From the IMG/VR virus record IMGVR_UViG_3300033146_000658, positions 5,330 through 69,329 of that record: 64,000 nt of DNA. One strand, 5' to 3'. Both the position numbers and the translations under genes were made by a program. This document shows positions 26,195 through 48,391 of the stretch, piece by piece (the first letter of the stretch is position 1; each line of letters opens with the position of its first letter). This DNA is from a virus. The notes under the pieces are model-generated. The model was not told the DNA's origin. It saw only the letters and a list, made by a program, of their open reading frames with translations, and did no database searches.

Positions 26195-26241
26195 ATAAAA
26201 AAGGTGCGTCCGGACAAAATGTCTAGTCGCACCTTTTTTAT
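26195..26241. terminator. bidirectional rho-independent terminator
   Basis: AAAAAAGGTGCG (26197-26208) and CGCACCTTTTTT (26228-26239) inverted repeat between convergent gene blocks. Confidence 0.9.
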
Positions 26242-29200
26242 TATTTATTAAAAATGTCAACTTTTGATGGTAGAGCTTTCATATCTCCATACATCGCAAA
26301 TTGTTTGAATGGTGTGAGTCCTATGAACTCTTTCATCATTTTAGAATCTCCTTTCCTCCATCCTGATTGATATGTTTCATACCATCCGTCATCCTCCGTA
26401 GGGCCATGCAATGATCTTGCTATTAACTTACCTCCATTTTCTATCATTGTGGTAGATGTTAATGGCGATCTTAATATATTCATTGCCTCATTAGGGTCTC
26501 TGTAAAACAGCATTTCCGAATGTAATCTATTTATCATATATGTAATGGATGCTAAGAATTTATCATCCTCGTCATCATCATGCAGTCCAAGAAACAGCAC
26601 TCCTAAAAGGCCCGTCATAACCATCATTGTAGACTCTGCTATAGTTTGATGGATATTCTTTCGCTGACCATCAGTTAATTTAGACCAGTTCTCGCCAACC
26701 ATTAACGATTTATTCTTCTTGATTGATCTCGCTAATCCTGTAATGAATCTAGCGGTAGAGGAATATATACCTTCGTTAAATTCCGTCTTAGCTTCATTAT
26801 ATCCCTTTTTATGAATATCTAATTTATCATAATCAGTAAAAGCATAAGTCATTCCCTTTAGTCTTTTATGGACTGTTCTAGGTATCCATTTACGCATATT
26901 AAATGATAATCTGCCAAAAGCTGTCTTCTGTGCATGGGATACCATTTTATCATCATATTGACCACTAGCGTCAGCCATAACATCCCTTATATATAATCCG
27001 GTTCTGCCCCTATCATATGCTTTGTAAGGATTCTGGCTAGTTGTATAAAATTTTATAGAATAATCTATTTTGCCATCCTTAACTGTTATAGCGTCGTTTA
27101 ATGATGCTGCCTTAGATACTTCTTTTACAACTTTCCCATTTTTACCTAGATAATTTCCTTTATTATCCATTAATTTAATGGAGTTCAACATACCATACAT
27201 TAGTGTAGCTTCAATGTAGAATTCACCCATAGAGTGCATAAAGAACATGTGATCCTTATTAACTATCTTCTGAAATAAGTCTTTCCTGAATGTAGGGTTT
27301 GATATCATAGCAAATTCCCCTTGAATATTGAATTGTTTCAAAAGTATGCTAGTTCTTGATTTTGATATATTTGATCCAACATCATTCATCCAATTTCTAG
27401 AGTCTCCCCAGAAATCTTTTTCAGCAGCGTTAAGCGCTCCCTTTTCCATATGTCTACCAAATGAACCTTCTAGCATGTTATTAAATTTACCTTGCATTAA
27501 GTTCACTGATGCACCCATCCAGTTGCCTAGCAAGAATGTCTTTGATACATATCCGTTTATCATTTTAGACATCCTGTTAGGTCCGAATGCACCAGCGTCA
27601 ACAGTTGTGCTACGTCGCCCATAAAGCCTTGTTTCAATTACAGACTTTAATAACTTGTATTCATTAGAATCTCCACTAGACTTTCTAACAACCTCATTGG
27701 TTAAAGAATCTTTATCAAATTGCTTCTTTTTATCCATTCCTATAGTGTCTAATGGCCTAGATTCTTTGACTATATCTAAAAGCATCTCTAGCTCGTTCTG
27801 CATTCCTGAACGCATACCATATTCTATAGCTTTTTCATGATTCTTCTGTAATGATGTGGTTAGGTCAAATGATAATTCATCTATTGGTAATTCGTGTCTA
27901 TAATACATTGGGATTCTCTTATTAAGCTCCCCTTTAAGATTAAGCTTAACCATTCTAAGCTCATCCTCATTAGACATATCCTCAGCCTCTTTCTTTAATG
28001 ATTCATTTTCGGAAGACTCTAATTCAAGAATATCACCAGACCCTATTTTCTTAAAGTCCCATAAATCAGAAATCTTATCCTTCGCGTATCCTGTTAAATT
28101 TAATTCGTTCCTATATTCTCCACCTTCTTTTCTTACCTGAGGTATTGAATAGTAGTCTATTTTACCAAGCTTTTTATAAGTTCTACTTAATTTATTTTCA
28201 ACATGCGAATCACTTCTTTTGATCTGCGGATAGATGACATTTTCTAAGAAATCTTTATGTTTTGCGTATCCTTTATTCTCCCATTTTTTAATAGGTTTAC
28301 CATTTACTATATTTTTCTTAATAAATACATTTAATTCTTTTCTAGCTTTCTTGAAATCGTCATCATTTTTACTTTCATCAGCATGTATCTCCTGCATTAT
28401 GTTTTGCAATCTACGATATTCATGTAACAAACTCCCTTTATACTCACTAATAAATAATCCAGTAGGATTGCCATCTTTGTCAAGGTCAATTATCTCACCA
28501 TGCAACTGCTTGTAAGAGATTCCTTTTCTCTTTATATAATCAGCAACCTTCTTATCAAATGCTAATCCTTCAGTAATCATAACCTCTCTTGCAGCGTCCT
28601 CTCTATCAGATAAAAACGCATTAACAGTCTGAACTAATACAGATCTCGTCATTGACGCGTCAGACACTAAGGCGTCCATCCATGTTATGTCATAACTACC
28701 GTTTTTAATGTAGTCCATCCACATCTTTTTGTCTTTCTCAAATACAGCATCTTTTGATTTAGATAAATTCTCAAATACATAGTTATCTCTAGCCAAAGTC
28801 CATACTGAAGAATTTACTAGCTTCCCATCTAACTTAAACATATTTCTAGCTAACTCGTTGACGGGAGGATTTTCATCTTCAAATTTTCGCTCTAAACGCT
28901 CCTTCATATCTATGGCTCCAGAATTACCTAACGTAGCTAATATAAACCCCCATTTAGATGTAGCGTCATCCTTTAATGACGTATACCTAGATGCTGCCTT
29001 ATTTTTAATTTTTGCAGCAGATGCTGACATTTTGAAAATAACATCATAATCCTTATCGGCTTTATCCATCCCGGTAAGCATTTCATTAAGGACATTATTG
29101 ACGTCACTTAATATGCTAAGCTTCTCGTAACGGACTTGTAGCTCACGTATCTCATTAGCGGAGGTCCCTAGGGAATTCTCATGTATATTATCGTATTTAA

Positions 29201-31418
29201 GCTGTAGTTCAGATAACTCTATTTCCGAAATCCTTATAAATTCATTAAGTCCTTCAAGGTCATCTAACTTACCAAGTCTCTCTATCGTGGATATAACGTT
29301 ATCCTTGTAAGGCCTATTTATAAGCCCATTGTTTGAATTTAACAAACCATTGAGCATATTCTTTATTTTCTTAGATACTGACTCTACAGTTTCTTTTAAT
29401 TCATTTGATTCAGATACAGATAAGCTGATATTCCCAGTTTGCTGACCTAGTTCGCTATATATAGGAGTCCATAAAGATTTATTCCTACTAATCTTATCAA
29501 CATTATCTATTGTTGGCTCTATGGATGATAATAATCCTTTACTTTCTGAATTTTCAAAATCTATATCAATTGGCAATGTTAATATAGTTGCATCACCATT
29601 AAATTCCAGTCCGGGATACAACTTCTCAATAAGATTAGCATACGCCGCAAGCTGTTTGGCATATTTCCTTTTCCTATGTATATCAGTTACTGGATTCTTT
29701 TCATTTCTTGTCTTGAAATCATAAACAGCAAATTCGCCAGTTGATTGTTTTACAAATATTAAATCAACACTTCCCGCGATCTTTTTTGATTTATCAAATA
29801 ATCTAGCCTCAGATACTGGTTTATATCCCTTTTCCGCATACTCATCAACTAAGTCATGGACAAAATCATATATAGGTTGTAACTTTTTATCTTCAGCTAC
29901 CCATTTATTGGCGTCTATCGCAGTTTCTAATAAATCATGAACGTAAGTTCCGTAATCTGCCTGAATATCATATCCCATAGCCGTGCTTATAGCTAATTTC
30001 CCAACATCCTCTAATAATTCTTTATTATCAAATAATTCATTAATTGAGTATACACTTTTGTCAGACATGGCGTTTTTAACAGCCAATGGTAGATTATTCA
30101 TATTGTCCTTATAAAACTCTACTCCAGGGATTACATATTCACCATTAGAGTCTATTGGCATTTCAGCAAACTCATCGCTACTTATCATTTCAGTAACAGA
30201 TCTTGATGCAATTACATCACCAAGTTTATATTTGTGACTTTTTTTATCAAATTCAACATGAGATCCGCTATTTTTCACCTTAGTTCCTTTCAAGCTTTTG
30301 AAATGGTCACTTGGAGGTGACTTGTCGTATTGAATGTATGTTGGAATGAATGATGATTCATTAGTTAATGACTTTCTGTTAATTCCTTCCTCAGCAAGCT
30401 GTTTAGCTATGTTATTTGATGTTTTAAATAATTTTGATATCTGAGCATATAACCATTTTTTAAACCTGTTAAAAGAGTCTATTTGTGGCTTATTATTAAA
30501 TAGAGCAGTAGCTTCTTTACCGACAGATTCTGCAACTATCTCCAATTTAGCTTGCTCTTCTTCCATTTCTGGATTATTTTCCAATATCTCTTTAAACCTA
30601 TCCGTCTTAGATAAGTCATTTGCTAGTTTAGCTACTCTAGGATTATTTAATCCACCTATAGAATTAATGTATATATGACCAATAGCTTCGTGAAAAACAG
30701 TATCCTCACGCACCTTTTTTTTACTTAGGGTGACATATGGATTGTTATTACCATCATAATTAACACTACCATGGAAATCCTCATCTTCTGTTAAGTTTAC
30801 TTTTATACCTAACTTATCTTGAATATATTTAATTTGTTCACGAATCTGCTCATCCTCAATAGCTTTAAGTTCATCTTCCGCTAATTCCATAGGAGTATAA
30901 CCATAATTATCCTCCTTCACTGTTTTGTTGAAATTATGTTTATGGATCGATGCAGCTACGGATCGCCTATGTCCAGTAGATGAATTAACTGATGCTACTG
31001 ATGCAGCTTCAGATATACTAACTTTAGGATCAAGTAACTCAGACTCCTTCTCTTCTGCCAGTCTATTATTAATACTTTTTAATAATGGTAATGATTTAGA
31101 ATTTAAACTCATCATGCTATAAATTACAGCATCTGATGTTTTGTCATAATTATCATTTACAGAATTAACAGTATATGTATTATCTTTATTTTGGGTCACA
31201 TCAATATTTAATGATGTATCAAAATTAGAATTAAAGTCATAGATCTTACTCATACTCTTGGTAAAGTCTAATTCATTTAATACATCGCCAGCTTTAACTC
31301 CAGTTATGCTAGATACAGTGAATGCATCTGTTTTAGAACTTATATCTAAAGCTTTAGCAAACCCAACTTTATCTGCTATATATTCAGCAGGAGTCCCTTT
31401 AATTTTACATTTTCCCAT
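26241..31418 (-). CDS. giant virion cargo protein with zincin-like and PD-(D/E)XK nuclease domains
   Basis: 1725 aa; VFHEAIGH metallopeptidase-like motif; IAGSVDLIF...YDFKT...KQLAAY nuclease motifs; last gene of the RNAP cluster. Confidence 0.7.
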   Translation of the reverse strand: MGKCKIKGTPAEYIADKVGFAKALDISSKTDAFTVSSITGVKAGDVLNELDFTKSMSKIYDFNSNFDTSLNIDVTQNKDNTYTVNSVNDNYDKTSDAVIYSMMSLNSKSLPLLKSINNRLAEEKESELLDPKVSISEAASVASVNSSTGHRRSVAASIHKHNFNKTVKEDNYGYTPMELAEDELKAIEDEQIREQIKYIQDKLGIKVNLTEDEDFHGSVNYDGNNNPYVTLSKKKVREDTVFHEAIGHIYINSIGGLNNPRVAKLANDLSKTDRFKEILENNPEMEEEQAKLEIVAESVGKEATALFNNKPQIDSFNRFKKWLYAQISKLFKTSNNIAKQLAEEGINRKSLTNESSFIPTYIQYDKSPPSDHFKSLKGTKVKNSGSHVEFDKKSHKYKLGDVIASRSVTEMISSDEFAEMPIDSNGEYVIPGVEFYKDNMNNLPLAVKNAMSDKSVYSINELFDNKELLEDVGKLAISTAMGYDIQADYGTYVHDLLETAIDANKWVAEDKKLQPIYDFVHDLVDEYAEKGYKPVSEARLFDKSKKIAGSVDLIFVKQSTGEFAVYDFKTRNEKNPVTDIHRKRKYAKQLAAYANLIEKLYPGLEFNGDATILTLPIDIDFENSESKGLLSSIEPTIDNVDKISRNKSLWTPIYSELGQQTGNISLSVSESNELKETVESVSKKIKNMLNGLLNSNNGLINRPYKDNVISTIERLGKLDDLEGLNEFIRISEIELSELQLKYDNIHENSLGTSANEIRELQVRYEKLSILSDVNNVLNEMLTGMDKADKDYDVIFKMSASAAKIKNKAASRYTSLKDDATSKWGFILATLGNSGAIDMKERLERKFEDENPPVNELARNMFKLDGKLVNSSVWTLARDNYVFENLSKSKDAVFEKDKKMWMDYIKNGSYDITWMDALVSDASMTRSVLVQTVNAFLSDREDAAREVMITEGLAFDKKVADYIKRKGISYKQLHGEIIDLDKDGNPTGLFISEYKGSLLHEYRRLQNIMQEIHADESKNDDDFKKARKELNVFIKKNIVNGKPIKKWENKGYAKHKDFLENVIYPQIKRSDSHVENKLSRTYKKLGKIDYYSIPQVRKEGGEYRNELNLTGYAKDKISDLWDFKKIGSGDILELESSENESLKKEAEDMSNEDELRMVKLNLKGELNKRIPMYYRHELPIDELSFDLTTSLQKNHEKAIEYGMRSGMQNELEMLLDIVKESRPLDTIGMDKKKQFDKDSLTNEVVRKSSGDSNEYKLLKSVIETRLYGRRSTTVDAGAFGPNRMSKMINGYVSKTFLLGNWMGASVNLMQGKFNNMLEGSFGRHMEKGALNAAEKDFWGDSRNWMNDVGSNISKSRTSILLKQFNIQGEFAMISNPTFRKDLFQKIVNKDHMFFMHSMGEFYIEATLMYGMLNSIKLMDNKGNYLGKNGKVVKEVSKAASLNDAITVKDGKIDYSIKFYTTSQNPYKAYDRGRTGLYIRDVMADASGQYDDKMVSHAQKTAFGRLSFNMRKWIPRTVHKRLKGMTYAFTDYDKLDIHKKGYNEAKTEFNEGIYSSTARFITGLARSIKKNKSLMVGENWSKLTDGQRKNIHQTIAESTMMVMTGLLGVLFLGLHDDDEDDKFLASITYMINRLHSEMLFYRDPNEAMNILRSPLTSTTMIENGGKLIARSLHGPTEDDGWYETYQSGWRKGDSKMMKEFIGLTPFKQFAMYGDMKALPSKVDIFNK

Positions 31419-31419
31419 A

Positions 31420-34035: not shown

Positions 34036-34054
34036 GCTTATTTATTTAAATATT

Positions 34055-34084: not shown

Positions 34085-34097
34085 AACTGTTCTTAAT

Positions 34098-34109
34098 TTA
34101 TATGTTACT
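34098..34109 (-). promoter_or_regulatory. putative phage late promoter motif AGTAACATATAA
   Basis: Exact 12-mer also at 52177-52188 and 60540-60551, each upstream of a - strand gene. Confidence 0.5.
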
Positions 34110-37590: not shown

Positions 37591-40500
37591 TATGTTTTAC
37601 TTTAACCCAGTTTTCATTAATCCACTTACCGTCTTCTCCACGGCGACTTCCTATATTAACATAACCTAAATCAGCTTCGCTATTAGATTCTTCATTAGTA
37701 ACAATATCCGGCTCTTTTACTTCGTCCACTACTGTTTTTTCCTCAACAACTTTCTCAATAGTTTCTTTTTTAGGATTAGCCTTATCGTATGCCGCTTGTG
37801 ATTTATCACCCCATATACCATCTACCGTAACACCTAAACTTTCTTGCTTTTTAGCATTAGCGTATTCGGGTGTGCCTTTTAAAAACATCTTACCCTTTGG
37901 TTTAGCGTATTGCGGATACATTATCTTGTCACCATTCTTAGCATCTTCGATAAATCCAATAGGTTTATTGCCGTCTACTGATGCATAGTCATAGGCGTCC
38001 TTTACTATGTCTTTTTTAGGTCTATTGTTCCTGTATGATATGTGTCTATTAGTGCCATCACTTGTTGGCACATAAACTTTTGTTGAGTAATTATCGCCAA
38101 TTCCAACTACATTATTTGCATTTGGCTTGACATTTTTATAATAATTATGTAATTTTAACGAATCGTTATAAGTCTTATATGATTTATCATTCTTATTATC
38201 AACAAAGCTATAATCCATATCACCACCATCTTTAATGGGGGGATTATTAGGTATGACCATTCCGTGGGCAGCGTGAATTGAACTATCCCCTTTAGTAAAA
38301 CTTACATTACCTTTATTAATACTTAATTGAACACCGCCGGACTTGTGACTAGGGTGGCCTTTTAAATCCTTAACTACTCGCCATTTACCACCTTTCTTAA
38401 ACCCCGATTGCATTCCGTCTTTAGCTTTAGGGGAGCCTCCACCTTTACAGTTTTCAATATCTTCTTCAGTAGTTTTATTGTTAACTCTCATTAAGTCAAC
38501 TTGTCTCTTATAACTACCATCACTAAGCATTTTGCTAAGTAGCTCTAATGAATTTTGAGACCTAATGACTTTCTTTATTTCCGCAGAGACCTTATCATGA
38601 CTGCTATACATTGCATTAAGCTCAGAAGTAATTTCATCCTTCCTTTGAATTAGCTCATCTTTTGAGGCTGTGTCACTATCTATATTCTCTTCATCTTCCT
38701 TATTAAACTCATTAAGTTTATTGGATATATCAAGCATCTCTTTACTTAGCTTGTCTATAGATTCCGATATAGCAACTTTATTGTCATACAGTTTATCTAA
38801 CCCGCTCGATTCAGCTATTCTGGCAGTATGATAGTTATCTTCTTGAAATAAATCATGTTTAACTTTTCTAATCCCAGTTATTTTACTTTTATTAACATTA
38901 ATATATTTACTTATGTTATTAAATAAATCCAATGGTATAGAATCGTTTAATCCGGCTTCGTCTCTTGATATATATTCATTTAATAATAATTCTTGAAATA
39001 CCTTCTTCCAATCATTACCTGATAACATATCCTCGGGCTGATATCCTATATCCTTAAGCAATTCCTTGGCTTTATCTATATTGAATGTTTTTGATTTCAT
39101 CATATTGCCTATAACACTTTTTGCGCTAGAGACTTCTATATTATACTCCGGAATCATCATATACATTTTATCAATATCAAAGTCAGATCCTGATTTAACT
39201 ACGATTTCATCATATAATATAATGGTATCTCCCATTGTCGGCGGCAATATACCAACAACATCTATAGATTCTAGCGAAGACATAGCCTGAGTAGGTATAC
39301 GATAACCTATTAACCCTTTAAATATTTCAGGGTCAATATTTATATCACCCTTCCCTTTAGAGTTTAATATAAATCTTGCCTTATAATCTTCTAAGTCTTC
39401 ATCTTTACGCTGGGGCATTATTTTTTGAATAATATTAAATGGCATCAATACTTGCGCCCTATTACTCATTTTACCATCTTTTTCAATAATCATTGGAGAC
39501 AATCTTTCATTCTCCATCTCTTTTTTAGTCTTAAAGAATAACACCTTGGATTGATCCACATTACTTAAATCAGTAAACGCTCCAGAAGCCTGTATCATAG
39601 ACCCTCCATTTGTTTTGATTTTAGTAACCGCCTTAGTTATTTCACTAGCTATAATCTTATTTATTTTATCTCTCAATTGAGGCGTTACAGATATATCCCC
39701 AGTAGAGTATAATAATTCCATATGTGTCTCAGGAGTAGTATCTTTCAACTGATCCATTACAGCATTCATAAATGTGGATTTATCTACAGTGACCCCAGAG
39801 ATATCTTTACCATATCTTTTCAATACATCTTTAATTGCATTGTCTGATTTGGCAGCAAATAAACTAAATAATTCTTTTATCAAGACATCGCCTTTAACAA
39901 GACCCACCCCACTAATCTCATATTCTTTATTTATATCAAAATTGTATAAAATCTCTCTTTGTATTTGAGATCCTATAGATGTTGCGTGATGACCTTTGGC
40001 TGGTAAATCTTGCTGTATTCTATAACCTAAATTTGAATATTCATTTCTGTTAAGTGGTGAATCTTCAATATAATTACCATTATCATCAAATACAGTGCTT
40101 ATGTTTTGTGCTCCAGCCTTGTTCCCTGACACGAATATAACTTCGTCTATTTCGCTACCCTCTTCGCTTGATGTATTATACGTTCCGTCTTCATTAAACG
40201 CCTTACTATCCATCTTCTTCAATAAAGAATCTGAATGACCGGCCACCCCTGGAATTATAACAAACTGAGAATATTTGAAGTATACAGGCTTATTTCTCGG
40301 CCCGTCTTGCTGAACGTCATAATACACACCTTTAACCGGCTGCATTAGTATCTTAATATCTTCAGAATCAAGCTCAAATGGCCGATTAACCATTTTGTCA
40401 AAAACAGAATCCATACTAGGACTCCATTTACCAGACTTCTTCATAATAAATTTCCATCTATTAGGAGTTATCAACCCCCATCCATCAGCTCTGTTAATAG

Positions 40501-43414
40501 AGGAATATCCTTTATACATTTCCTTCTCAGACGGATCTGATTGATTAAAAGAACTTATTATCTTGTCTAAGAATACAGATTTTGCATTAACGTCATTTAT
40601 TATTGCCGCACCAAAATTAACATCTTTCTTATGTTCAACATTAAGTCGCTTCCCATCAGCGTATGCCGCAGGAACACGTTTAATCATTTCTAATCCACTT
40701 TTAAAAAATGCTTCAGAACCATGAAATATAACCATGTATTCATGAGTTGATATTTGTCTATTAAATATATAATCAATTATTATTTCTTCAGCAAGATTAG
40801 CATTTTCTTTAATCGATCCCTCTTTCGGTAATATTAAAGTTGTTGATTTAGCGTCATTAGACGTTGCTATATTACCATTAGTATCAACTGATATAATGCC
40901 CTTGTTGAGCATTTTCTGAATCTCTTTAAGCATTGACGCCTTCAGGTTATCGCTAATTGATTTATCAATAGATTTACTCACCTTCTCATCTCGCAAGGAT
41001 TCTAAATAAGTAGGATAATCTAATATCTTACTAAAGAATTCCCCCATAGAATAAGCTTTTGCTCCTGAATCACGAACCATTAATAAATGCTTCTCAAGAA
41101 CTTCCATGTCACTATTTAACGACTCATCCGTAAATTGCATTCCGGACGCTAATGATTCTGGTGTAATATCACCAACTGTTATTCCGCCGTCTTTTAATAC
41201 ATTGTATCCTGGTATAGCATTAAATTCCCTATCCCTATCCATAGATAATTTAAACTCATCATTAAACGTTCTGTCTTTTGACGGCTTAACCGACTTAAGT
41301 ATTCTATAAATATGTTCTGATGAATAAGCTAGTTCCTTTGATACAATATTGCCTTTAGCAAGAATTTTATTCTTCCATACCTTAATTAACTCAGGACTTA
41401 GTTCTCCATCAAGATTATCTATAGACATTCCATTTTTAGACAATAATCCATTAACATCTATCTTTGACTTAGGATTACCATCACTATCCATTGGTGACAA
41501 TGCGCTACCTAAGAAAGTCTTACTTAATACCGGTATTCCAGATATCCCTAATGTTGTAGATTTATCAGATGCGGTAAGACCCTCCTGTGCGTAATTTAAG
41601 GCATGCCCAGTGAGTTTTGTTATAGCGAATGAGTTAATAGACCTTTTTTCATTTTCTATAGCCCTAAGCTTCTTATTTGGCTTTTCTACTCTTCCTTTAT
41701 ATGCAAATAGAATTTTCTTAATGGATATATTTGATATCCGTTCCTTGCGTAATTCCAATCTCTCCTCTTCTGTGTATTCTTTTTCGTAACCAAGAATGTA
41801 TTCAAGTATTCTTGAACCTCTACCTTCGCCATGTCTATAAAATGACTCTAGTTGAGAGAAGTCGTTTTCTGATTTTGCTCTATTAAAGAAATCATCAATG
41901 AAATTTGCATTAGAAAATGCATATACTTTCTTTCCATCTGGCCCTAATTGTGAATAATCATCCATTGAATCAATTTTACTATATTTAGCAATTGATGCAA
42001 TTTTCTTAAGTCCAGATGACTCTTTCGACATTATGGAAGGAGTTTCCGTCGATACCCTGTCATGTTCCTTTAATGATTTAATGATATGACCTAATATCTC
42101 TTTATCGTATATTAAACTATTATTATTACTATTAATTTCTTCTACGGCACTTTCTGATATTACTATACCGAACTTTCTGTATAATAAATCGATATCAGCC
42201 GATGTGTAATCATCAGACTTCTTTAGTCGCTCATGCTCTGCTGACACCTCTTTAATTAACGCCTCGTTCTTTATAAAGCTATTAGCGTCCCTGCTCATTG
42301 AGAAAAATTTATTCAAGAATGAATTATTCCAATCCTCAATCATTTGACCCTCAGTGCTGTTTGCTGTTTTTGTATCAGAAACTTTAAGAACAAGCTTTTC
42401 CCCAACCTCCTGTAGCCCTTGAGCTTCAAAATTATTTGTTGATTGAGAAAATACGTGAATAAAATTATCTCTAGCAGATGGATTTTGTAATAATCTATTC
42501 CTCAATACAAGGAATTCGCTATTAGCCTCACCCATCTTTAGGAGCTTTTTACTCATGCTATCCCATATAGTAATAAGATCACCACCTTCACTAAGGCTCG
42601 GTGTAGTATCAGCTAATGTGGCCCATAACGTATTCTTAATACTTTTTGCGTTATGCACCTTAGGTATATATCTAGATCCATCAACAACAGGATTTTCATT
42701 ATCAACATATGGTATTCTTGATAATTCTAAATTAAGTAATGTACCTATCTTAGCGCTAGGATTAAGCTCCATAGCGTCACGAATACCTAGGTCGCCACTT
42801 TTCTTAGCGTCGCTTTCGGCTATTTCTTGAACGCCTAACGATCTAAGTCTTTTAGCAATGTTACTTTCGAGCTCATTAATCCCAGAATCTGTCTCTAATG
42901 CTAATTGTATTGCTGAATCATGCTCTGTTCCATTTGTAAACCCATCAACTATACCAAATGCAATATCTCTTATTAATTCAAAAGTTAAATTGCCAAGGAC
43001 ATCATTATCGACAACATCTGATGTTGGATCAAGATCCACAACATCACCAGTCGGCTCACCTTTGGTTATTTTAATAGCCCCTTCAATAGCCTTGTTTAAT
43101 ACCATCATCTCAAAAGAGGCCTTTACAATAGGGTCGACATTCTCGAATCCTGTAGGTATTAAATAACGCTTCGCACCTCTTTTATCAACTATAAAAAGTT
43201 TATCAGAATGACTCCTAAATACCTTTATTGTGCCAGATGATATAAATGCATTCCCACTTTCTTCATCATTAACATCACCGACTTCATTAATAAACCATTT
43301 CTCTTTAGTTTGGTTTATAATAATCTCAGCTTCAGATCTACTAAGGTTGTCATTAATCGTATATTTACTAATCAACTCTTCATGTATCGCTGATTCAATT
43401 TTGCAATTGCTCAT
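37583..43414 (-). CDS. virion DNA-dependent RNA polymerase, catalytic part (crAss-type)
   Basis: 1943 aa; YRIPTQ and GSDFDIDKMY (DxDxD at 39170-39184); KR, DG, QPVKG and KYSQ conserved blocks; C-terminal PG-binding-like DGIWG. Confidence 0.85.
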   Translation of the reverse strand: MSNCKIESAIHEELISKYTINDNLSRSEAEIIINQTKEKWFINEVGDVNDEESGNAFISSGTIKVFRSHSDKLFIVDKRGAKRYLIPTGFENVDPIVKASFEMMVLNKAIEGAIKITKGEPTGDVVDLDPTSDVVDNDVLGNLTFELIRDIAFGIVDGFTNGTEHDSAIQLALETDSGINELESNIAKRLRSLGVQEIAESDAKKSGDLGIRDAMELNPSAKIGTLLNLELSRIPYVDNENPVVDGSRYIPKVHNAKSIKNTLWATLADTTPSLSEGGDLITIWDSMSKKLLKMGEANSEFLVLRNRLLQNPSARDNFIHVFSQSTNNFEAQGLQEVGEKLVLKVSDTKTANSTEGQMIEDWNNSFLNKFFSMSRDANSFIKNEALIKEVSAEHERLKKSDDYTSADIDLLYRKFGIVISESAVEEINSNNNSLIYDKEILGHIIKSLKEHDRVSTETPSIMSKESSGLKKIASIAKYSKIDSMDDYSQLGPDGKKVYAFSNANFIDDFFNRAKSENDFSQLESFYRHGEGRGSRILEYILGYEKEYTEEERLELRKERISNISIKKILFAYKGRVEKPNKKLRAIENEKRSINSFAITKLTGHALNYAQEGLTASDKSTTLGISGIPVLSKTFLGSALSPMDSDGNPKSKIDVNGLLSKNGMSIDNLDGELSPELIKVWKNKILAKGNIVSKELAYSSEHIYRILKSVKPSKDRTFNDEFKLSMDRDREFNAIPGYNVLKDGGITVGDITPESLASGMQFTDESLNSDMEVLEKHLLMVRDSGAKAYSMGEFFSKILDYPTYLESLRDEKVSKSIDKSISDNLKASMLKEIQKMLNKGIISVDTNGNIATSNDAKSTTLILPKEGSIKENANLAEEIIIDYIFNRQISTHEYMVIFHGSEAFFKSGLEMIKRVPAAYADGKRLNVEHKKDVNFGAAIINDVNAKSVFLDKIISSFNQSDPSEKEMYKGYSSINRADGWGLITPNRWKFIMKKSGKWSPSMDSVFDKMVNRPFELDSEDIKILMQPVKGVYYDVQQDGPRNKPVYFKYSQFVIIPGVAGHSDSLLKKMDSKAFNEDGTYNTSSEEGSEIDEVIFVSGNKAGAQNISTVFDDNGNYIEDSPLNRNEYSNLGYRIQQDLPAKGHHATSIGSQIQREILYNFDINKEYEISGVGLVKGDVLIKELFSLFAAKSDNAIKDVLKRYGKDISGVTVDKSTFMNAVMDQLKDTTPETHMELLYSTGDISVTPQLRDKINKIIASEITKAVTKIKTNGGSMIQASGAFTDLSNVDQSKVLFFKTKKEMENERLSPMIIEKDGKMSNRAQVLMPFNIIQKIMPQRKDEDLEDYKARFILNSKGKGDINIDPEIFKGLIGYRIPTQAMSSLESIDVVGILPPTMGDTIILYDEIVVKSGSDFDIDKMYMMIPEYNIEVSSAKSVIGNMMKSKTFNIDKAKELLKDIGYQPEDMLSGNDWKKVFQELLLNEYISRDEAGLNDSIPLDLFNNISKYINVNKSKITGIRKVKHDLFQEDNYHTARIAESSGLDKLYDNKVAISESIDKLSKEMLDISNKLNEFNKEDEENIDSDTASKDELIQRKDEITSELNAMYSSHDKVSAEIKKVIRSQNSLELLSKMLSDGSYKRQVDLMRVNNKTTEEDIENCKGGGSPKAKDGMQSGFKKGGKWRVVKDLKGHPSHKSGGVQLSINKGNVSFTKGDSSIHAAHGMVIPNNPPIKDGGDMDYSFVDNKNDKSYKTYNDSLKLHNYYKNVKPNANNVVGIGDNYSTKVYVPTSDGTNRHISYRNNRPKKDIVKDAYDYASVDGNKPIGFIEDAKNGDKIMYPQYAKPKGKMFLKGTPEYANAKKQESLGVTVDGIWGDKSQAAYDKANPKKETIEKVVEEKTVVDEVKEPDIVTNEESNSEADLGYVNIGSRRGEDGKWINENWVKVKHNE

Positions 43415-43420
43415 ATTGTG

Positions 43421-46400
43421 TTATTTTTTACATTCATTCATTTCATTTAACGCATCTTGTATCTTCTGTAATTGAATTTTACCAAATTCAGATTTTGCCA
43501 TAATACTCCCATTGACCCCGTTAATTTTTAGACTAATATAATTTGACGTTCTCCCGGTATTAACCTTCTGAGCATTCTTTCCTGTTGATATAACATCGTA
43601 TTTATCCCCATTGATTTCAGCTATCATCGAATCAACTTCCTTAATAATGTCCTCTTTACTTAAATTATCATCAAATGTAATATTCTGAGGGAATTCATAT
43701 AGGTTATCTTCAACTAAAGGCTCAGTAATTTCATCCTCCTTAGTTTCAATAATATCTGTATTTTTAGGAGGTTTAATAGTAATTGCTTTTTCGTTATGCA
43801 TTTCAACACCCCATTTGATAGCTTCGCTTAAATCATTAAAGGACTTTCTTGTCTTGCGACTTTTCCTAAATGATGTTGTATATGTAATTTTACCATCCTC
43901 GTCCTCTTTAGCATCTATTTTGAATGTCAATTTAGCTTTATTAAATTCGGCTATAGTAGAGTAGTTGTTATCAGATTTTTCTTTAGCCTTCTTTACAACC
44001 TTAGATTTGCCTTTCTTAACATAATATCCATCTTTATTCTTTTCGTATCCAGCATCCTCCAATTCTGTTATTATAGAATCGACATCCTGTTTAGATTTCG
44101 CTAGATTAAAAAACTTTCTCTTAAACTCCTTATCATGACTAAGTTCAATTATTCTATTAATATTAGCTGATTTCTCATCTAATGATGACGCCTCTCTTAA
44201 TGACCTTAATGCTATCGATTGTTGACTGGCTTTCATTTTTGATTTTCTCCCAAGAGTGTTCTCAAAAGCACCAGACCCTGAAGTTGTTTTATTTTTGGAC
44301 GATTCTCTCTTAGCCTCCTTGTGAATATTAATCTTTGTTGTCATGATAGGAGATAATCCAACACTATCCTCTTCAGGGATAAATTCTACATTATCGGCTA
44401 TGTCTGTAGATAATACATTATTAATAACGAATGCGGCATAACTATCCTTCTCATAAGATCCTTCATTCCTTATAACATCAAATCTAACATTTGTCTTTAT
44501 ATCAGCGTTAATTAATGCTGCTTTAATAACATCTATACCAACTACTTGCCCAGAATTATTAGTTACTTTTCCTGAATTCTCATTAAATTTATATGATGTA
44601 TCGCCTATTATTACCGCCTTTGTTTTACTAAAGGTAGCTAATTTCTTTTTATTACCATCAATTAAAGTCTGCTCTCCGCTATTGACAAACATATCTAATA
44701 ATTCATACAATTTAGTCTTTGAATTAATTAAATCAGCATTTAACCCTAGTTTATTTATAACATTATCTCTCATTGCAGATAATACTTTACCATCATTATT
44801 ATTGCCAAGTGCTATATTAAACATTATTTCAGCAACTATACCAGCTAATTCCGGATGAGTATCATTTAATGAATTATGATTTAACTTAATAGGAAGTAAT
44901 CTACCTGACGCAGTCTTACCGGTGAAGTATATTCTTCCGGAACTATGGTCTTTAGCTTTGAGTTTTTTAAGAATTTGAGATAACTCAACTCCACTCTTAC
45001 CTTTTCCTTTAGACATTTTACTATAATCTAAATTCATATCGGAATAAACTAATAGTTTCTCTATTAAGTTCCCTATACGTTCGGATTCATTTTCGCCTAA
45101 GTTATCAACAGCGTTTAGTAAATTACGATCACCTCTAGACTCTTTTTCTTTAATTTTATTAATTGACTCAAAGACAGACGTATTATTAAATGTTACCTTT
45201 ACATCTTTATCCTTAACTCCTTTCTCATTCATTTTATCAGAAAGTTCTTTATAAATATTTCTTACACTCTGGTTATCAGAAGTATCTCTGCTTTCATTTA
45301 TTACATTATAAGCAAATGTTTTAAATACTACTTTCTTTCCTTTATTCTTCCCACTTTTAATAGTCGTTGTAACTACTGCCTTTAACCCAAAATTAAACTT
45401 CTTAGCAGCCTCCTCCATCGCTTTCGGATCATTTGGGGTATTGCCAGAATAATCTAAATCAGGTATTGTCTCCATTGACTTGCCTTCGGTTGAAACCGGA
45501 ATAATGTCTACTGATGTTGTTACATTTTCAGAGTCTACATCTTCGCCAAGGTCTTCAAGTTTTGATACATATTCATTGTAATCACCCTCTGAAGACTTAC
45601 TTTCAGTAGTGGCTAATGACATAGCTTTCAAATGACTATTCTCACTAGTCCCGCTAGTGGAGATGTCTTTCGACTTCTCGTTTTTATTTACCGGGCTAGT
45701 AACATTTGTCTTCTTCTTTGTGTTCTTTACTGATTTATCAGGTTTGCTATTCTTTATCTTAGAGTGTTCTTTAGCGACTTCTCTCTTGGCATCAAGCATT
45801 CTTGTAGCGGCCTTTTCTGATTGCTCTAATAATTCATTGAACTTATCAAGATTCATATCTTTACTAAAGTTCTCTGATATTAATTTAGCCCTATTCAATA
45901 AACCTTCTTTCCATTCAGTAATACCTTGCTCGTCTTTAAAATCCATTGAAGCAAATTGTTTAGCCTCTTCTTCAATTGCCTTTAGGTCTACTTTAGCTTT
46001 TTCTGTTGCATAAAATGCTGGGTCAGCAAATAATTGATTGCTTAAATTAATAGCATTATGCAATCCTATCTTAGCTACTTTAAGCTCTTTAAATGCATCG
46101 ACAACAGATTCGGCTTCTTGCTTTGAGTATCCTGATTTTTTACTATCCAAAATACCTATAACCTGCTTGAATACAGATGATGACGATGTCATATAATTAC
46201 CTAATTCAGACATTAATTCACGCCTTTTTTCCTCATCAACAAATCCAGCACTATTTAATGACATATTGAATGCATCCTCAATCTCAAAATTGTTCTCCTC
46301 TGAAATAAACTTATCTATTAGATTTAATCCATTTTCGTCTACAGTATTTAGTATATCAGACAATCCTGGATTTTCTGCTATAGCTGAGTCGAATGCATTA

Positions 46401-48391
46401 CGAATAGTCTTAACCTTATCCTCGATCATAGACTTAAATGAGTCCATCTTGTATAAATAGTATGCGTATTTATCTCTAGAGTAGGCATTTGTTATTCCTG
46501 ATTTATCAGCTTTTGACTGAGCTATACTATAATTCTTTATAGACCCTCTTAATGATTTTATTGTGTTATCTCTTAATTCATTAGCTTTCTCATTATAAGC
46601 TTCGTCATTTGTTGAATCTTCTAGGGAATCTCTTAGTTCTGTCTTATATTTAATAGCACTATCACTATCCATTACAGCATCTATGAATTCATCACCTTTC
46701 ATATCAGATACATCATCAATCATAGAATGAGCTATATCTGTATATCCGTATTTAACAAATGGTTTAAAAAATCCAACAACAGCATCATCATAAAGATCTT
46801 CACTATTAATATCATTATCAGAGTTCTCTATCCCATTTAATGATGCCTGAGTATCTTGTAACGATCTTAATTTATCTATATTGTATTTAGGAAGTCTTAA
46901 TCCATCAAGTTCAGCAGCCATTTCTTTAGCTGTTTTCTGATCCTTTCTGTATTCAAACATTCTATTTATAGAACTACCCTCCCATGACAATCCAGTCCAA
47001 GACATTATATTCTTAGCTCTTTCTTTCTCGTTCTTATCTTTGTTATTCTTTCTAACCGATGGCGATCCTATCATACCTATAAGCATCCCCATATAAGCTT
47101 CATGACGGCCTGCCACTGTCATTGTAGACTTCCAGAATCCGTCGCCTAAAGCACCTAACGCATCAGTTATGCTAACATCTTCAGTTCCGCTACCAGAGCC
47201 ATATGCTCGATTAACAGCGGTAGATACAACACCCTGAGACATTTCCTCCATGCCTTCTGATATAGGATTCTTTAATGTATTCTTAAATATCTTACCAGTT
47301 AATGCTAATTTGCTCATATCTTGATATTTAGCAGACAGCTTACCATTTTTAACTGTTGTTTTTAAGAAATCTTTAGCACCCTTAAACTCTTTACCTATCG
47401 AGCTAAGCCTCATAGCCGATGGGGATTTAAATAAATTAGGGAACTGTATCATATTTGATGCCTGAACTATTGCTACATTAGCAAAAAATACCTTAGCTTC
47501 AGCGTCATGAATTCTTGAGTTAATCTCTTCTTCATTAAGCCCCTTTGACTCAAGGGTGTGTCTTAACTCCTCCATTGCACCTTTAGTCTCTACGATACCT
47601 TCCCATGCGGCTCCGTTAAGAAATGTCTGCCGGGCAATCCTTCCAACATCATTTACGGTTTTCCATTTTTGAGCAGCTCTAGCCACCTTATTAAATTTAT
47701 CCGCACCTGATGCTAATTGAGATGCTTTTTTAGCTGAATTAGCTAATCTAAACATTCTTCCGACTTTATTAGCTATAGCCAAAGAGGCTAGTCCGCCTGT
47801 GGCCATTTCCGATATAGCGGCACCAGCAGTAAATGCTAATGCGTCAGCTACACTTTCGGCGAATAGCGTTCCCGACCCTTTAAAGAATCCCCTCTCATCA
47901 AAATCCTTAGGCTTGTATATACCCATCTCATCCTCAGCCCATGACGTCATACTATCTGTAAGGTCAGTAAAATCATTATCATAAAATTTTGAACGATCAC
48001 CAGTAGCCGCCCACGCAGTTAATCCGTAACCGGCTCCAGTTATATTACCACCGACCTGTATTGCTGTTTTAGCCGCAAATTGACCAAGAACCTTCGCGGA
48101 GTTTCCCCACGCGCTAGATTCATCATACATTGTATCTTCAATGTTGGCCATTGTTTCATTATTCCCATTATATGAAACATCATCAAATGCTCTATTATAG
48201 TCCTGAAGCATATCGCTATCTTTAACAGATATTGACATGCGATCCATCTTAGGCCTATTCATGTTTGATTCATCGACTGCTCGAGAACTCCATGCACCTG
48301 TTTTTATATCTGAGAAATCAAAATTCTGCTGATTTGCTACAGGTATTTTTTCACCATCGCTAGCGACTGCTTTCATTCTTAAATTAGACAT
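43421..48391 (-). CDS. giant virion cargo/ejection protein
   Basis: 1656 aa; Gly/Ala-rich N-terminal third with EGMEEMSQG; adjacent to the RNAP gene as in crAss-like phages. Confidence 0.65.
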   Translation of the reverse strand: MSNLRMKAVASDGEKIPVANQQNFDFSDIKTGAWSSRAVDESNMNRPKMDRMSISVKDSDMLQDYNRAFDDVSYNGNNETMANIEDTMYDESSAWGNSAKVLGQFAAKTAIQVGGNITGAGYGLTAWAATGDRSKFYDNDFTDLTDSMTSWAEDEMGIYKPKDFDERGFFKGSGTLFAESVADALAFTAGAAISEMATGGLASLAIANKVGRMFRLANSAKKASQLASGADKFNKVARAAQKWKTVNDVGRIARQTFLNGAAWEGIVETKGAMEELRHTLESKGLNEEEINSRIHDAEAKVFFANVAIVQASNMIQFPNLFKSPSAMRLSSIGKEFKGAKDFLKTTVKNGKLSAKYQDMSKLALTGKIFKNTLKNPISEGMEEMSQGVVSTAVNRAYGSGSGTEDVSITDALGALGDGFWKSTMTVAGRHEAYMGMLIGMIGSPSVRKNNKDKNEKERAKNIMSWTGLSWEGSSINRMFEYRKDQKTAKEMAAELDGLRLPKYNIDKLRSLQDTQASLNGIENSDNDINSEDLYDDAVVGFFKPFVKYGYTDIAHSMIDDVSDMKGDEFIDAVMDSDSAIKYKTELRDSLEDSTNDEAYNEKANELRDNTIKSLRGSIKNYSIAQSKADKSGITNAYSRDKYAYYLYKMDSFKSMIEDKVKTIRNAFDSAIAENPGLSDILNTVDENGLNLIDKFISEENNFEIEDAFNMSLNSAGFVDEEKRRELMSELGNYMTSSSSVFKQVIGILDSKKSGYSKQEAESVVDAFKELKVAKIGLHNAINLSNQLFADPAFYATEKAKVDLKAIEEEAKQFASMDFKDEQGITEWKEGLLNRAKLISENFSKDMNLDKFNELLEQSEKAATRMLDAKREVAKEHSKIKNSKPDKSVKNTKKKTNVTSPVNKNEKSKDISTSGTSENSHLKAMSLATTESKSSEGDYNEYVSKLEDLGEDVDSENVTTSVDIIPVSTEGKSMETIPDLDYSGNTPNDPKAMEEAAKKFNFGLKAVVTTTIKSGKNKGKKVVFKTFAYNVINESRDTSDNQSVRNIYKELSDKMNEKGVKDKDVKVTFNNTSVFESINKIKEKESRGDRNLLNAVDNLGENESERIGNLIEKLLVYSDMNLDYSKMSKGKGKSGVELSQILKKLKAKDHSSGRIYFTGKTASGRLLPIKLNHNSLNDTHPELAGIVAEIMFNIALGNNNDGKVLSAMRDNVINKLGLNADLINSKTKLYELLDMFVNSGEQTLIDGNKKKLATFSKTKAVIIGDTSYKFNENSGKVTNNSGQVVGIDVIKAALINADIKTNVRFDVIRNEGSYEKDSYAAFVINNVLSTDIADNVEFIPEEDSVGLSPIMTTKINIHKEAKRESSKNKTTSGSGAFENTLGRKSKMKASQQSIALRSLREASSLDEKSANINRIIELSHDKEFKRKFFNLAKSKQDVDSIITELEDAGYEKNKDGYYVKKGKSKVVKKAKEKSDNNYSTIAEFNKAKLTFKIDAKEDEDGKITYTTSFRKSRKTRKSFNDLSEAIKWGVEMHNEKAITIKPPKNTDIIETKEDEITEPLVEDNLYEFPQNITFDDNLSKEDIIKEVDSMIAEINGDKYDVISTGKNAQKVNTGRTSNYISLKINGVNGSIMAKSEFGKIQLQKIQDALNEMNECKK

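What the first reader, a model, noticed from the sequence alone, without database searches (positions are those of the whole stretch)
26241..48391. Lone terminal cysteines in consecutive giant cargo proteins suggest a disulfide-linked head-to-tail chain
Seen by reading the translations: these proteins are essentially Cys-free except at their ends. The 1656-aa protein has one Cys, in C-terminal NECKK. The 1943-aa RNAP has Cys4 (MSNCK) and Cys1656 (IENCKGGG, 38447-38449) at the end of the polymerase part. The 871-aa protein has Cys3 (MGCPK) and a last-residue Cys (KIEC). The 1725-aa protein has Cys4 (MGKCK). In gene order each C-end Cys is matched by an N-end Cys in the next protein, and the chain has no Cys at its very start or very end. 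Inference: intermolecular disulfides (or shared metal sites) concatenate the cargo into one thread for ordered packaging or ejection through the tail, released in the reducing cytoplasm. This would also tie the two RNAP halves together.
Basis: partly seen in the sequence, partly recalled or inferred. Interest (0 to 1): 0.72.

Follow-up and report, generated by a model that had tools for sequence, protein, structure and literature searches.

The report
Terminal cysteines chain crAss cargo proteins
Four giant proteins of this crAss-like phage, including its RNA polymerase split in two, have cysteines only at the ends that face the next protein, a pattern kept across the phage order that suggests, without proof, end-to-end disulfide links.

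Summary
The four proteins hold 6 Cys in 6,195 residues, where about 48 are expected.

The pattern is family-wide. Of 119 RNAP homologues at 30-37% identity, 115 have Cys at residue 3-8, 115 have Cys in the last 8, and 103 have only these two. Fused forms lack the junction pair, and three triple fusions of 4,651-4,834 aa have no Cys at all. Few fusion events are independent.

Cys1656 is not terminal. It precedes a ~68-aa module that follows such a Cys in 134 of 143 homologues. In all 19 related loci the order is module-bearing protein, then a protein with the 1,161-aa protein's N-terminal domain, then a protein starting M-x-C, as here.

Cyanophage A4 shows the same signature, and its Cys1715-Cys5 disulfide was seen by cryo-EM.

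Head-to-tail pairing is well supported. Disulfide chemistry and ordered ejection are untested. This scan noted the same pattern before on other DNA, and four paper searches found no report of it.

The parts
43421..48391 (-). w1656, first link ('A' type, counterpart of phi14:2 gp67 / crAss001 gp47). Its sole Cys is C1654 (43430-43432), third residue from the end.
   Evidence: for the Cys. BLASTP to crAss001 gp47 gives E 4e-6 and to phi14:2 gp67 E 0.003, which is weak. The position upstream of the RNAP matches the 8 loci with a complete gene.
37583..43414 (-). w1943, N-terminal part of the virion RNA polymerase. It carries C4 (43403-43405), the DFDID catalytic motif at residues 1411-1415 (39170-39184) and C1656 (38447-38449).
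   Evidence: Residues 878-1466 match phi14:2 gp66 859-1417 at 32% identity, E 2e-74.
38243..38446 (-). Module of about 68 aa directly after C1656 (residues 1657-1724; conserved W..VKDLKG.P.H..GGV core). I read it as a C-end connector or docking module.
   Evidence: phmmer against 1.84 billion representatives gave 404 hits at E <= 1e-3. Of the 143 homologues examined, 134 have a Cys just upstream of the module and 97 have the module at the extreme C-end. The function is inferred; the AF2 model has low confidence.
37586..38242 (-). Tail of 219 aa after the module (residues 1725-1943).
   Evidence: Similar tails follow the module in P0243, P0283, P0354 and P0386. In 10 of the 19 module loci, 110-604 residues follow the match. 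No Pfam or PDB sequence match.
It has an N-terminal domain of about 65 aa (37396-37590) and internal C353 (36532-36534) and C360 (36511-36513). It is probably a cell-wall hydrolase cargo.
   Evidence: The N-domain is 37-56% identical (E 1e-10 to 7e-17) to the protein that follows the module-bearing gene in all 19 loci. The hydrolase reading is only a lead: protein-atlas neighbours at about 0.9 carry Amidase_5, CHAP, SLT or Lysozyme_like, a similar C-x4-6-C...GDAW...H pattern occurs in L027 and L032, and Pfam and PDB sequence searches found nothing.
31420..34035 (-). w871, C-terminal part of the RNA polymerase (bridge-helix and trigger-loop region). It has C3 (34027-34029) and C871, the last residue (31423-31425).
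   Evidence: Residues 90-328 match gp66 1467-1673 and residues 95-830 match P0003 1538-2302. The gp66 bridge helix is at 1529-1559 and the trigger loop at 1598-1636 (preprint passage).
26241..31418 (-). w1725, last link ('B' type, counterpart of phi14:2 gp65 / crAss001 gp49). Its sole Cys is C4 (31407-31409). It contains a PD-(D/E)XK nuclease-like domain.
   Evidence: BLASTP to gp65 gives E 1e-76. Pfam PF12705 scores 28.8 bits against a cutoff of 22, and phrog_298 is annotated exonuclease. Cys.
48402..53399 (-). Three upstream ORFs of 847, 405 and 401 aa with no Cys. They are probably further ejected cargo and are not part of the Cys chain.
   Evidence: w401 residues 250-400 match crAss001 gp45 (cargo protein 1) at E 1e-11.

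Best explanation
The window holds the virion RNA-polymerase cargo module of a divergent crAss-like phage.

Proposed chain. Its giant proteins avoid cysteine except for one at each end that faces the next protein: w1656 (C-end) - (N-end) w1943 (C1656 + module) - (N-end) w871 (C-end) - (N-end) w1725. I infer that each facing pair forms an intermolecular disulfide once the particle is outside the cell. This would join about 6,200 residues head to tail into one covalent thread, the same topology that relatives achieve by fusing the genes. The thread would keep the proteins, here including the two halves of a split RNA polymerase, together in 1:1 ratio during packaging and passage through the tail. 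The host cytoplasm would then reduce the links.

The middle junction. The junction inside the polymerase is a conserved three-part type: a Cys plus a ~68-aa module on the upstream protein; a protein with a ~65-aa N-terminal docking-type domain (w1161, probably a cell-wall hydrolase carried along); and a downstream protein starting M-x-C.

What is shown and what is inferred. Shown: the sequence pattern, its conservation, and its tracking of gene boundaries. Inferred: the disulfide chemistry, the timing of oxidation, and any role in ordered ejection.
For: 1. Cys positions and the chance estimate in the window.

2. Same rule in distant relatives.
- phi14:2: gp67 has its only Cys as the last residue; gp66 has C3 and C2179 of 2180; gp65 has C3 only.
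- crAss001: gp47 has C2339 of 2341 only; gp50 has C5, C1334 and C2404 of 2412; gp49 has C5 only. gp47 lies on the other strand, not next to gp50.

3. Ten IMG/VR loci at 23-35% identity, two of them giving identical ORFs.
- In 8 of 8 loci with a complete upstream protein, it has a single Cys in the last 5 residues.
- In 7 of 7 loci with a complete RNAP, it has C3 and a Cys in the last 4.
- In 10 of 10 loci the downstream protein has a Cys at residue 3-4.

4. The 119 RNAP homologues. N-end Cys in 115, C-end Cys in 115, both in 111, exactly these two in 103. Only 9 internal Cys occur in 285,566 residues.

5. Boundary tracking in 120 longer proteins.
- Of 113 with the RNAP core pushed to residue 1800 or later (N-terminal fusion), 3 have an N-end Cys and 112 have a C-end Cys. 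In 37 the C-terminal Cys is the only Cys.
- 2 of 2 RNAP-B fusions keep only the N-end Cys.
- 4 of 4 A-RNAP-B fusions have no terminal Cys, and 3 of these have no Cys at all.

6. Module. A Cys precedes it in 134 of 143 homologues. It ends A-type proteins, RNAPs, A-RNAP fusions and small B-type pieces. 71 of 143 have only an N-end Cys plus the module Cys.

7. Three-part junction in 19 of 19 loci (two pairs give identical ORFs). The M-x-C protein follows directly in 16.

8. Precedent. Anabaena phage A-4L ORF27 (1717 aa) has its sole Cys at 1715, and ORF26 (1114 aa) has its sole Cys at 5. A Cys1715-Cys5 disulfide was seen in the A4 virion (PMC12002296, passages).

9. Disulfides do form in a crassvirus particle: tail and gp57 in crAss001 (PMC10172136, passages).

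10. [quoted passage not shown]
Against: - There is no direct chemical or structural evidence for any of these links in any crAss-like phage.
- Particles assemble in a reducing cytoplasm, so oxidation must come later.
- The passages I saw of the crAss001 atlas report disulfides only in the tail and gp57. The cargo was not resolved there. Its extended-data tables were not visible to me.
- Few boundary changes are independent. On a FastTree of 238 RNAP cores the N-fusion state changes only twice, with one informative pair. The B-fusion state changes four times, with 4 of 4 pairs concordant and sign test p = 0.125.
- Some lineages of fused proteins carry 8-17 internal Cys.
- P0147, a triple fusion, has 3 internal Cys.
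- 8 of 119 RNAPs lack one terminal Cys. Several look like fragments or intron-interrupted ORFs.
- In this window the C1656-C3 pairing is assigned by elimination. C1656 is 287 residues from the C-end, and the adjacent gene is w1161, not w871.
- Most relatives of w1161 carry a C-H-x-C motif at residues 42-45 (15 of 19 loci). That could point to a metal site at this junction type.
Confidence: 0.6

Rival explanations
1. The facing cysteines, with neighbouring His or acidic residues, share a metal ion such as Zn instead of forming a disulfide. The proteins are still tethered end to end, but by coordination.
For: At the module-type junction, 15 of 19 loci have C-H-x-C at residues 42-45 of the w1161-type protein. 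The module has an invariant His. With the module Cys and the next protein's Cys3 this gives four or more possible ligands.
Against: At the plain junctions only two Cys are present, too few for a Cys-based site. The window, L023, L026, L027 and L032 lack the C-x-x-C yet keep the module Cys and the M-x-C start. In phage A4 the same two-Cys signature is a disulfide.
Confidence: 0.12
2. Each terminal cysteine acts on its own rather than pairing with its neighbour. It might attach to a third partner (portal, capsid wall, DNA end) or carry a modification.
For: No contact between the ends has been observed. The AF2 model of the module alone has low confidence, so its partner is unknown.
Against: The first protein never has an N-end Cys and the last never has a C-end Cys. 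Fusions lose both members of a pair together. Together these fit pairing between neighbours, not independent anchors.
Confidence: 0.08
3. The cysteines are remnants or parts of protease cleavage sites of an ancestral polyprotein. The Drobysheva preprint states that fused forms are probably cleaved.
For: The preprint says some phages fuse the three proteins into one polyprotein, 'likely cleaved', and that gp65 has a zincin-like protease domain (passage).
Against: If Cys marked the cleavage sites, fused proteins should keep them. Instead 37 of 113 N-fused proteins have a single, C-terminal Cys, and 3 of 4 triple fusions have none.
Confidence: 0.03
4. The ends undergo a ligation chemistry such as intein-like trans-splicing or thioester-mediated joining, which would make a true peptide-linked chain.
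For: The N-proximal Cys and a Cys preceding a small conserved domain loosely recall splicing junctions. This is my recollection, not a test.
Against: No Hint or intein family appears in the Pfam scans of the six proteins or of the module region. The module is only about 68 aa. The N-end Cys sits at residue 3-5, not at a splice junction. The plain junctions have no extra domain at all.
Confidence: 0.03
5. The pattern is chance, composition, or a nucleotide-level signal at gene junctions.
For: The genes are tightly packed, with gaps of 1-6 nt or overlaps.
Against: P is about 1e-10 to 1e-14 within the window. The pattern is conserved at 23-37% protein identity. It is kept in crAss001, where gp47 is on the other strand and not adjacent to gp50.
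Confidence: 0.01

Closest known systems
Cyanopodophage A4 (Anabaena phage A-4L) ejection proteins gp27 and gp26; pre-ejectosome cryo-EM, PNAS 2025, PMC12002296 (passages read)
   Same: Adjacent genes. The upstream giant protein has its only Cys three residues from the end (C1715 of 1717), and the downstream protein has its only Cys at residue 5. The two form an observed intermolecular disulfide in the virion.
   Different: There is one link between two proteins, in a pentameric ring on the portal. No RNA polymerase and no connector module are involved. There is no detectable sequence similarity to the window's proteins (all BLASTP E > 1). Here there are three links joining four proteins, plus a three-part junction.
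Virion RNAP cargo module of Crassvirales: phi14:2 gp67-gp66-gp65 and crAss001 gp47-gp50-gp49
   Same: The proteins are homologous and follow the same end-cysteine rule. These proteins were detected in virions (record annotations; PMC10172136 passage).
   Different: In the window the RNAP is split after the DFDID domain into w1943 and w871, with a new Cys pair and the w1161 gene at the break. The papers I could read do not mention the cysteines: 0 hits for 'cystein' in PMC10172136, and 0 hits for cystein or disulfide in the preprint.
Cysteine suppression in ejection proteins of Schitoviridae (N4 gp50, DEV gp71-gp73), PMC11445570 (passages)
   Same: Giant ejected proteins, including a virion RNAP, are almost free of Cys. 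That paper attributes this to passage through the periplasm.
   Different: Those proteins lack Cys altogether. Here one Cys is kept at each facing end.
Fused A-RNAP-B polyproteins of some crAss-like phages (mentioned in the Drobysheva preprint)
   Same: The same domains occur in the same order as one covalent chain.
   Different: The link is a peptide bond, and the junction Cys are absent.

Membership tests
Crassvirales virion RNA-polymerase cargo module | Giant protein with the DFDxD catalytic motif, homologous to phi14:2 gp66 | tested here: met
   DFDID at w1943 residues 1411-1415. 32% identity to gp66 over about 590 aa, E 2e-74.
Crassvirales virion RNA-polymerase cargo module | Flanked by homologues of gp67/gp47 (upstream) and gp65/gp49 (downstream) | tested here: met
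   w1725 matches gp65 at E 1e-76. w1656 matches gp47 at E 4e-6, and gp67 only at E 0.003.
Crassvirales virion RNA-polymerase cargo module | Proteins are packed in the virion and ejected | not testable with these tools
   Known only for phi14:2 and crAss001 (annotations; passage).
Disulfide-linked ejection-protein pair (phage A4 gp27-gp26 type) | Lone Cys at the C-end of the upstream protein and lone Cys at the N-end of the downstream protein | tested here: met
   At the middle junction the C-side Cys is followed by a module and a tail.
Disulfide-linked ejection-protein pair (phage A4 gp27-gp26 type) | The two Cys form a disulfide in the particle | not testable with these tools
   Needs non-reducing gels, MS or cryo-EM.
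Disulfide-linked ejection-protein pair (phage A4 gp27-gp26 type) | Sequence homology to A4 gp26 or gp27 | tested here: not met
   BLASTP gives all E > 1 against the window's proteins. The likeness is one of pattern, not of family.
Cys+module / w1161-type N-domain / M-x-C three-part junction | A Cys directly upstream of the ~68-aa module | tested here: met
   C1656. 134 of 143 homologues have it.
Cys+module / w1161-type N-domain / M-x-C three-part junction | The next gene encodes the ~65-aa N-terminal domain | tested here: met
   w1161 residues 1-65 are 37-56% identical to the corresponding proteins in all 19 loci.
Cys+module / w1161-type N-domain / M-x-C three-part junction | C-H-x-C at residues 42-45 of that domain | tested here: not met
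   The window has N-N-G-A there. The motif is present in 15 of 19 loci.
Cys+module / w1161-type N-domain / M-x-C three-part junction | A following protein starts with Cys at residue 3-6 | tested here: met
   w871 starts MGC. This holds in 19 of 19 loci, directly after the w1161-type gene in 16.
Polyprotein cleavage-site motif | The motif is retained at junctions of fused proteins | tested here: not met
Intein / Hint-type splicing element | A recognisable Hint or intein domain at the junction | tested here: not met
   No such Pfam family appears. The module is about 68 aa.

The most novel reading that the evidence does not exclude
The Cys-tipped ends, and above all the three-part junction (Cys + ~68-aa module, a ~65-aa N-terminal docking domain, and an M-x-C start), are a portable coupling system. 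It would let crAss-like phages cut their giant ejected proteins at almost any point, even inside the RNA polymerase as here. It would also let them hitch extra cargo, such as the probable cell-wall hydrolase w1161, onto one covalently linked thread that is reassembled in the particle and released by reduction in the host. Proteins of 72 to 6,422 aa carry the module.
Probability: 0.35. Interest if true: 0.8.

Novelty: new variant of a known kind. Interest (0 to 1): 0.64.

Why it matters
How crAss-like phages pack and inject about 0.7-1 MDa of protein, including their RNA polymerase, is open. A 2026 paper on N4 says the crassvirus ejection proteins still need to be resolved (PMC13434306, passage).

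A conserved end-to-end cysteine code gives a simple, testable model. The cargo would be one thread, made either by gene fusion or by disulfides. That would fix the stoichiometry and possibly the order of ejection.

The model also explains why a polymerase split between its catalytic barrel and its bridge helix can still be delivered as a unit. And it is a sequence rule that predicts which proteins of uncultured phages are ejected cargo and in what order they are linked.

Tried and rejected
- Complex prediction of the module (alignment A1) with w871 residues 1-120 gave no verdict (score 0.01). It counts neither for nor against.
- The AF2 model of w1161 residues 301-790 without an alignment had mean pLDDT 38, and the module with 50 rows had pLDDT 57.5. 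Both were too poor for a fold search, so none was run.
- Pfam and PHROGs gave nothing for w1656, w1943, w871 or w1161 beyond a sub-threshold PG_binding_3 match.
- PDB sequence searches gave nothing for w1161 or the w1943 tail.
- The search for homologous proteins with w871 at near length returned only w871 itself. So I found no independent second example of a split C-half. P0004 is an N-half with Cys + module and lacks the w871 region. It is the window's nearest relative on the tree, so it is probably the same split event.
- An apparent split without new Cys in L008, and ORFs P0002 and P0034 that end at the DFD motif, is better read as a group I intron. Rfam RF00028 scores 33 and 25 bits, below its gathering score of 50.
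- The chance and nucleotide-signal reading and the cleavage-site reading were rejected for the reasons given under the rival explanations.
- The published Nature 2021 version of the gp66 paper (PMC12127119) is not held; only the preprint was read. Extended-data tables of PMC10172136 (disulfide list, virion MS) and all supplements were not visible, and they may bear on whether cargo disulfides were seen.
Full report
WHAT IS IN THE WINDOW

The minus strand between 26241 and 57690 carries a tight block of large ORFs. I counted cysteines in their translations.
- w1656 (43421-48391): only C1654, in NECKK.
- w1943 (37583-43414): C4 and C1656.
- w1161 (34105-37590): C353 and C360.
- w871 (31420-34035): C3 and C871, its last residue.
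- w1725 (26241-31418): only C4.
- Three ORFs upstream (847, 405 and 401 aa): no Cys.

So the four proteins are not strictly consecutive.

The pattern is not chance. Other ORFs of the window hold 0.77% Cys (74 in 9,602 residues). About 48 Cys are therefore expected in the 6,195 residues of the four proteins, and 6 are seen (Poisson P = 3e-14). Five of the six lie within the 40 terminal positions (P = 7e-11).

WHAT THE PROTEINS ARE

w1943 is a distant homologue of the virion RNA polymerase of crAss-like phages. The best hit among 50,697 phage records is Cellulophaga phage phi14:2 gp66, at 32% identity over residues 877-1468. All 135 matching records are below 60% identity. w1943 carries the DFDID catalytic motif at residues 1411-1415.

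The other proteins place as follows.
- w1725 is the counterpart of gp65 / crAss001 gp49 (E 1e-76).
- w1656 is weakly like crAss001 gp47 (E 4e-6).

The polymerase is split.
- w1943 878-1466 aligns with gp66 859-1417, and w871 90-328 aligns with gp66 1467-1673.
- w871 95-830 aligns with residues 1538-2302 of a full-length homologue.
- In gp66 the bridge helix is at 1529-1559 and the trigger loop at 1598-1636 (preprint 10.1101/2020.03.07.982082, passage).
- So w1943 holds the catalytic barrels and w871 holds the bridge helix and trigger loop.

THE RULE IN RELATIVES

Reference phages:
- phi14:2: gp67 (1797 aa) has its single Cys as the last residue. gp66 has C3 and C2179 of 2180. gp65 has only C3.
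- crAss001: gp47 has only C2339 of 2341. gp50 has C5, C1334 and C2404 of 2412. gp49 has only C5.
- In crAss001, gp47 is on the opposite strand and not adjacent to gp50. This argues against a nucleotide-level signal at gene junctions.

Ten IMG/VR loci at 23-35% identity, two of them giving identical ORFs:
- In 8 of 8 loci with a complete upstream protein, it has one Cys within the last five residues.
- In 7 of 7 loci with a complete RNAP, it has C3 and a Cys in the last four.
- In 10 of 10 loci the downstream protein has Cys at residue 3-4. Three of these have one further Cys.

119 RNAP homologues of 1,068-3,401 aa at 30-37% identity (counts):
- 115 have a Cys at residue 3-8 (97 of them at residue 3).
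- 115 have a Cys in the last eight residues.
- 111 have both, and 103 have exactly these two.
- Only 9 internal Cys occur in 285,566 residues.
- The 8 exceptions include ORFs on short contigs. One ends at the DFD motif.

THE RULE FOLLOWS GENE BOUNDARIES

I searched for longer proteins holding the RNAP core and got 120 proteins of 3,402-5,000 aa. I classed them by BLAST against reference A, RNAP and B proteins.
- N-terminal fusion (RNAP core pushed to residue 1800 or beyond): 113 proteins. Only 3 have an N-end Cys. These three, P0210, P0211 and P0239, have no A-type match. 112 keep the C-end Cys. In 37 that C-terminal Cys is the only Cys in the protein.
- RNAP-B fusions: 2 of 2 keep only the N-end Cys.
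- A-RNAP-B fusions: 4 of 4 have no terminal Cys. Three of them (4,651-4,834 aa) have no Cys at all. The fourth, P0147, has three internal ones.

A cysteine is therefore present at an end only when that end faces another protein of the series. This speaks for pairing and against the idea that the Cys mark cleavage sites of a polyprotein.

One caveat matters. On a FastTree of 238 RNAP cores the N-fusion state changes only twice, giving one informative pair. The B-fusion state changes four times, and the C-end Cys goes with it in 4 of 4 independent pairs (sign test p = 0.125). The large counts are thus pseudo-replicated. With the split in this window I count about six independent boundary changes, all concordant.

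Some lineages of fused proteins also carry 8-17 internal Cys, so cysteine avoidance is not universal.

THE MIDDLE JUNCTION OF THIS WINDOW

C1656 is followed by a module of about 68 aa (38243-38446). A phmmer search of residues 1641-1943 against 1.84 billion representatives gave 404 hits at E <= 1e-3. I re-examined the 149 listed non-self proteins and found the module in 143 of them.
- 134 of 143 have a Cys just upstream of the module.
- 97 have the module at the extreme C-end.
- 71 have only an N-end Cys plus the module Cys, and 46 have only the module Cys.
- Other Cys make up 0.024% of 127,403 residues.

The module ends A-type proteins, RNAPs, A-RNAP fusions (for example a 5,339-aa protein whose only Cys is at 5267) and small B-type pieces. 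C1656 is therefore a functional 'C-end' cysteine of a second, elaborated kind.

P0004 is the window's nearest relative on the tree. It is likewise an RNAP N-part ending in Cys + module, and it lacks the w871 region.

A scan of IMG/VR with the module alignment gave 19 loci; two pairs give identical ORFs. All 19 share one layout.
- The module-bearing protein is followed by a protein whose first ~65 residues are 37-56% identical to w1161 residues 1-65 (E 1e-10 to 7e-17). This protein comes directly in 17 loci and one ORF later in two.
- Then comes a protein with Cys at residue 3-6, directly in 16 loci.

So w1943 | w1161 | w871 is a conserved three-part junction, not an accident. Elsewhere this junction sits between the RNAP and B, or inside B. 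Here and in P0004 it sits inside the polymerase.

In 15 of 19 loci the w1161-type domain has C-H-x-C at residues 42-45. The window and four other loci lack it but keep the module Cys and the M-x-C start. In this window the only unpaired cysteines at the junction are therefore C1656 and C3 of w871.

WHAT W1161 PROBABLY IS

Pfam, PHROGs and PDB sequence searches found nothing. A protein-atlas feature search of residues 300-760 gave neighbours at about 0.9 that carry Amidase_5, CHAP, NlpC/P60, SLT or Lysozyme_like, which is a lead only. A similar C-x4-6-C...GDAW...H pattern occurs in the corresponding proteins of L027 and L032.

From recall, this pattern resembles papain-like cell-wall peptidases, with the second Cys as the nucleophile. 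I read C353 and C360 as belonging to an enzyme domain and not to the chain. I put this at roughly 60%.

MECHANISM

The best reading (confidence 0.6) is that each facing pair forms an intermolecular disulfide once the particle is in an oxidising environment. This would produce a head-to-tail thread: w1656-w1943-w871-w1725, with w1161 docked at the middle junction. The thread would be equivalent to the fused polyproteins of relatives, and the cytoplasm would reduce it after ejection.

Three things support the chemistry.
- The one solved case with the same signature. Anabaena phage A-4L ORF27 (1717 aa) has its sole Cys at 1715, and ORF26 (1114 aa) has its sole Cys at 5. A Cys1715-Cys5 disulfide is reported in the A4 virion (PMC12002296, passages). 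There is no sequence similarity to the window's proteins, so this is a likeness of pattern, not of family.
- Disulfides form in a crassvirus particle, in the tail and gp57 of crAss001 (PMC10172136, passages).
- The termini of gp66 are disordered in the crystal.

The general avoidance of Cys in ejected proteins is already described for N4-like phages, where it is attributed to passage through the periplasm (PMC11445570, passages).

The following are not shown: the bond itself, when it forms, whether it orders ejection, and whether reduction releases it. A shared metal site is the main rival (0.12). It is most plausible at junctions with C-H-x-C.

IS IT IN PRINT

Four full-text searches found no paper on terminal cysteines or cargo disulfides in crAss-like phages.
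- crAss + virion RNA polymerase + cysteine.
- Crassvirales + disulfide + RNA polymerase + ejected.
- crAss-like + terminal cysteine.
- Crassvirales + cysteine + cargo + ejection.

The crAss001 atlas has 0 hits for 'cystein', and its disulfide passages concern the tail and gp57. The gp66 preprint has 0 hits for cystein or disulfide. I saw passages only. Supplements and extended-data tables were not visible, and the published gp66 paper is not held.

This scan has noted the same pattern before on other DNA: 216 notes in at least 171 genomes, including notes on matched end modules and on a split RNAP. Those notes led me to the A4 paper, which I then checked myself.

VERDICT

It is a new variant of a known kind. 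The known kind is a disulfide between two ejection proteins in phage A4. The variant is a multi-link chain that includes the virion RNA polymerase, with a dedicated three-part junction that here cuts the polymerase itself.

Noticed in passing
L008:11783-12712 (also proteins P0002, P0034): The RNAP gene of this IMG/VR phage is interrupted right at the DFDID motif by about 930 nt. That stretch has two sub-threshold matches to the group I intron model RF00028 (33.4 and 25.2 bits; gathering score 50). ORFs P0034 and P0002 stop at the same place, so this is probably an intron in the catalytic site rather than a split protein.
   Followed up: partly
window:34057-34084 (minus strand): A terminator-like hairpin (12-pair stem followed by a T-rich run) lies in the only sizeable gap of the block, the 69 nt between w1161 and w871. 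The number of such sites in the region (3) is not above the shuffled expectation (5.7), so only the position is suggestive.
   Followed up: no
window:26241-31418 (w1725 residues about 383-690): The gp65/gp49-type last protein carries a PD-(D/E)XK nuclease-like domain (Pfam PF12705, 28.8 bits against a cutoff of 22; phrog_298 exonuclease, E 9e-13). It is possibly an injected nuclease.
   Followed up: no
L026:7209-7934 and L026:7924-9012; similar small ORFs at L014:7399-8064 and L026:4535-5215: In L026 the w1161-type gene starts normally, then runs into a Cys-containing ORF of about 240 aa. The real domain resumes in the next ORF. This looks like a homing-endonuclease-type insertion, which is my reading from the sequence and was not tested.
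   Followed up: no
L028:4137-4337: A 66-aa protein consists of the w1161-type N-terminal domain alone (with C42 and C45). It sits between a module-bearing RNAP and a 147-aa protein with C3 and C146. It may be a minimal 'adaptor' form of the three-part junction.
   Followed up: no
window:17968-20370 (plus strand): This 800-aa protein has 13 Cys, and its C-end shares CKDCGYSKC with the crAss001 gp69 ribonucleotide reductase. It shows that non-cargo proteins of this phage use Cys freely.
   Followed up: no
window:24000-28000: GC skew flips from about +0.27 to -0.24 at the switch from plus-strand to minus-strand genes near 26200.
   Followed up: no
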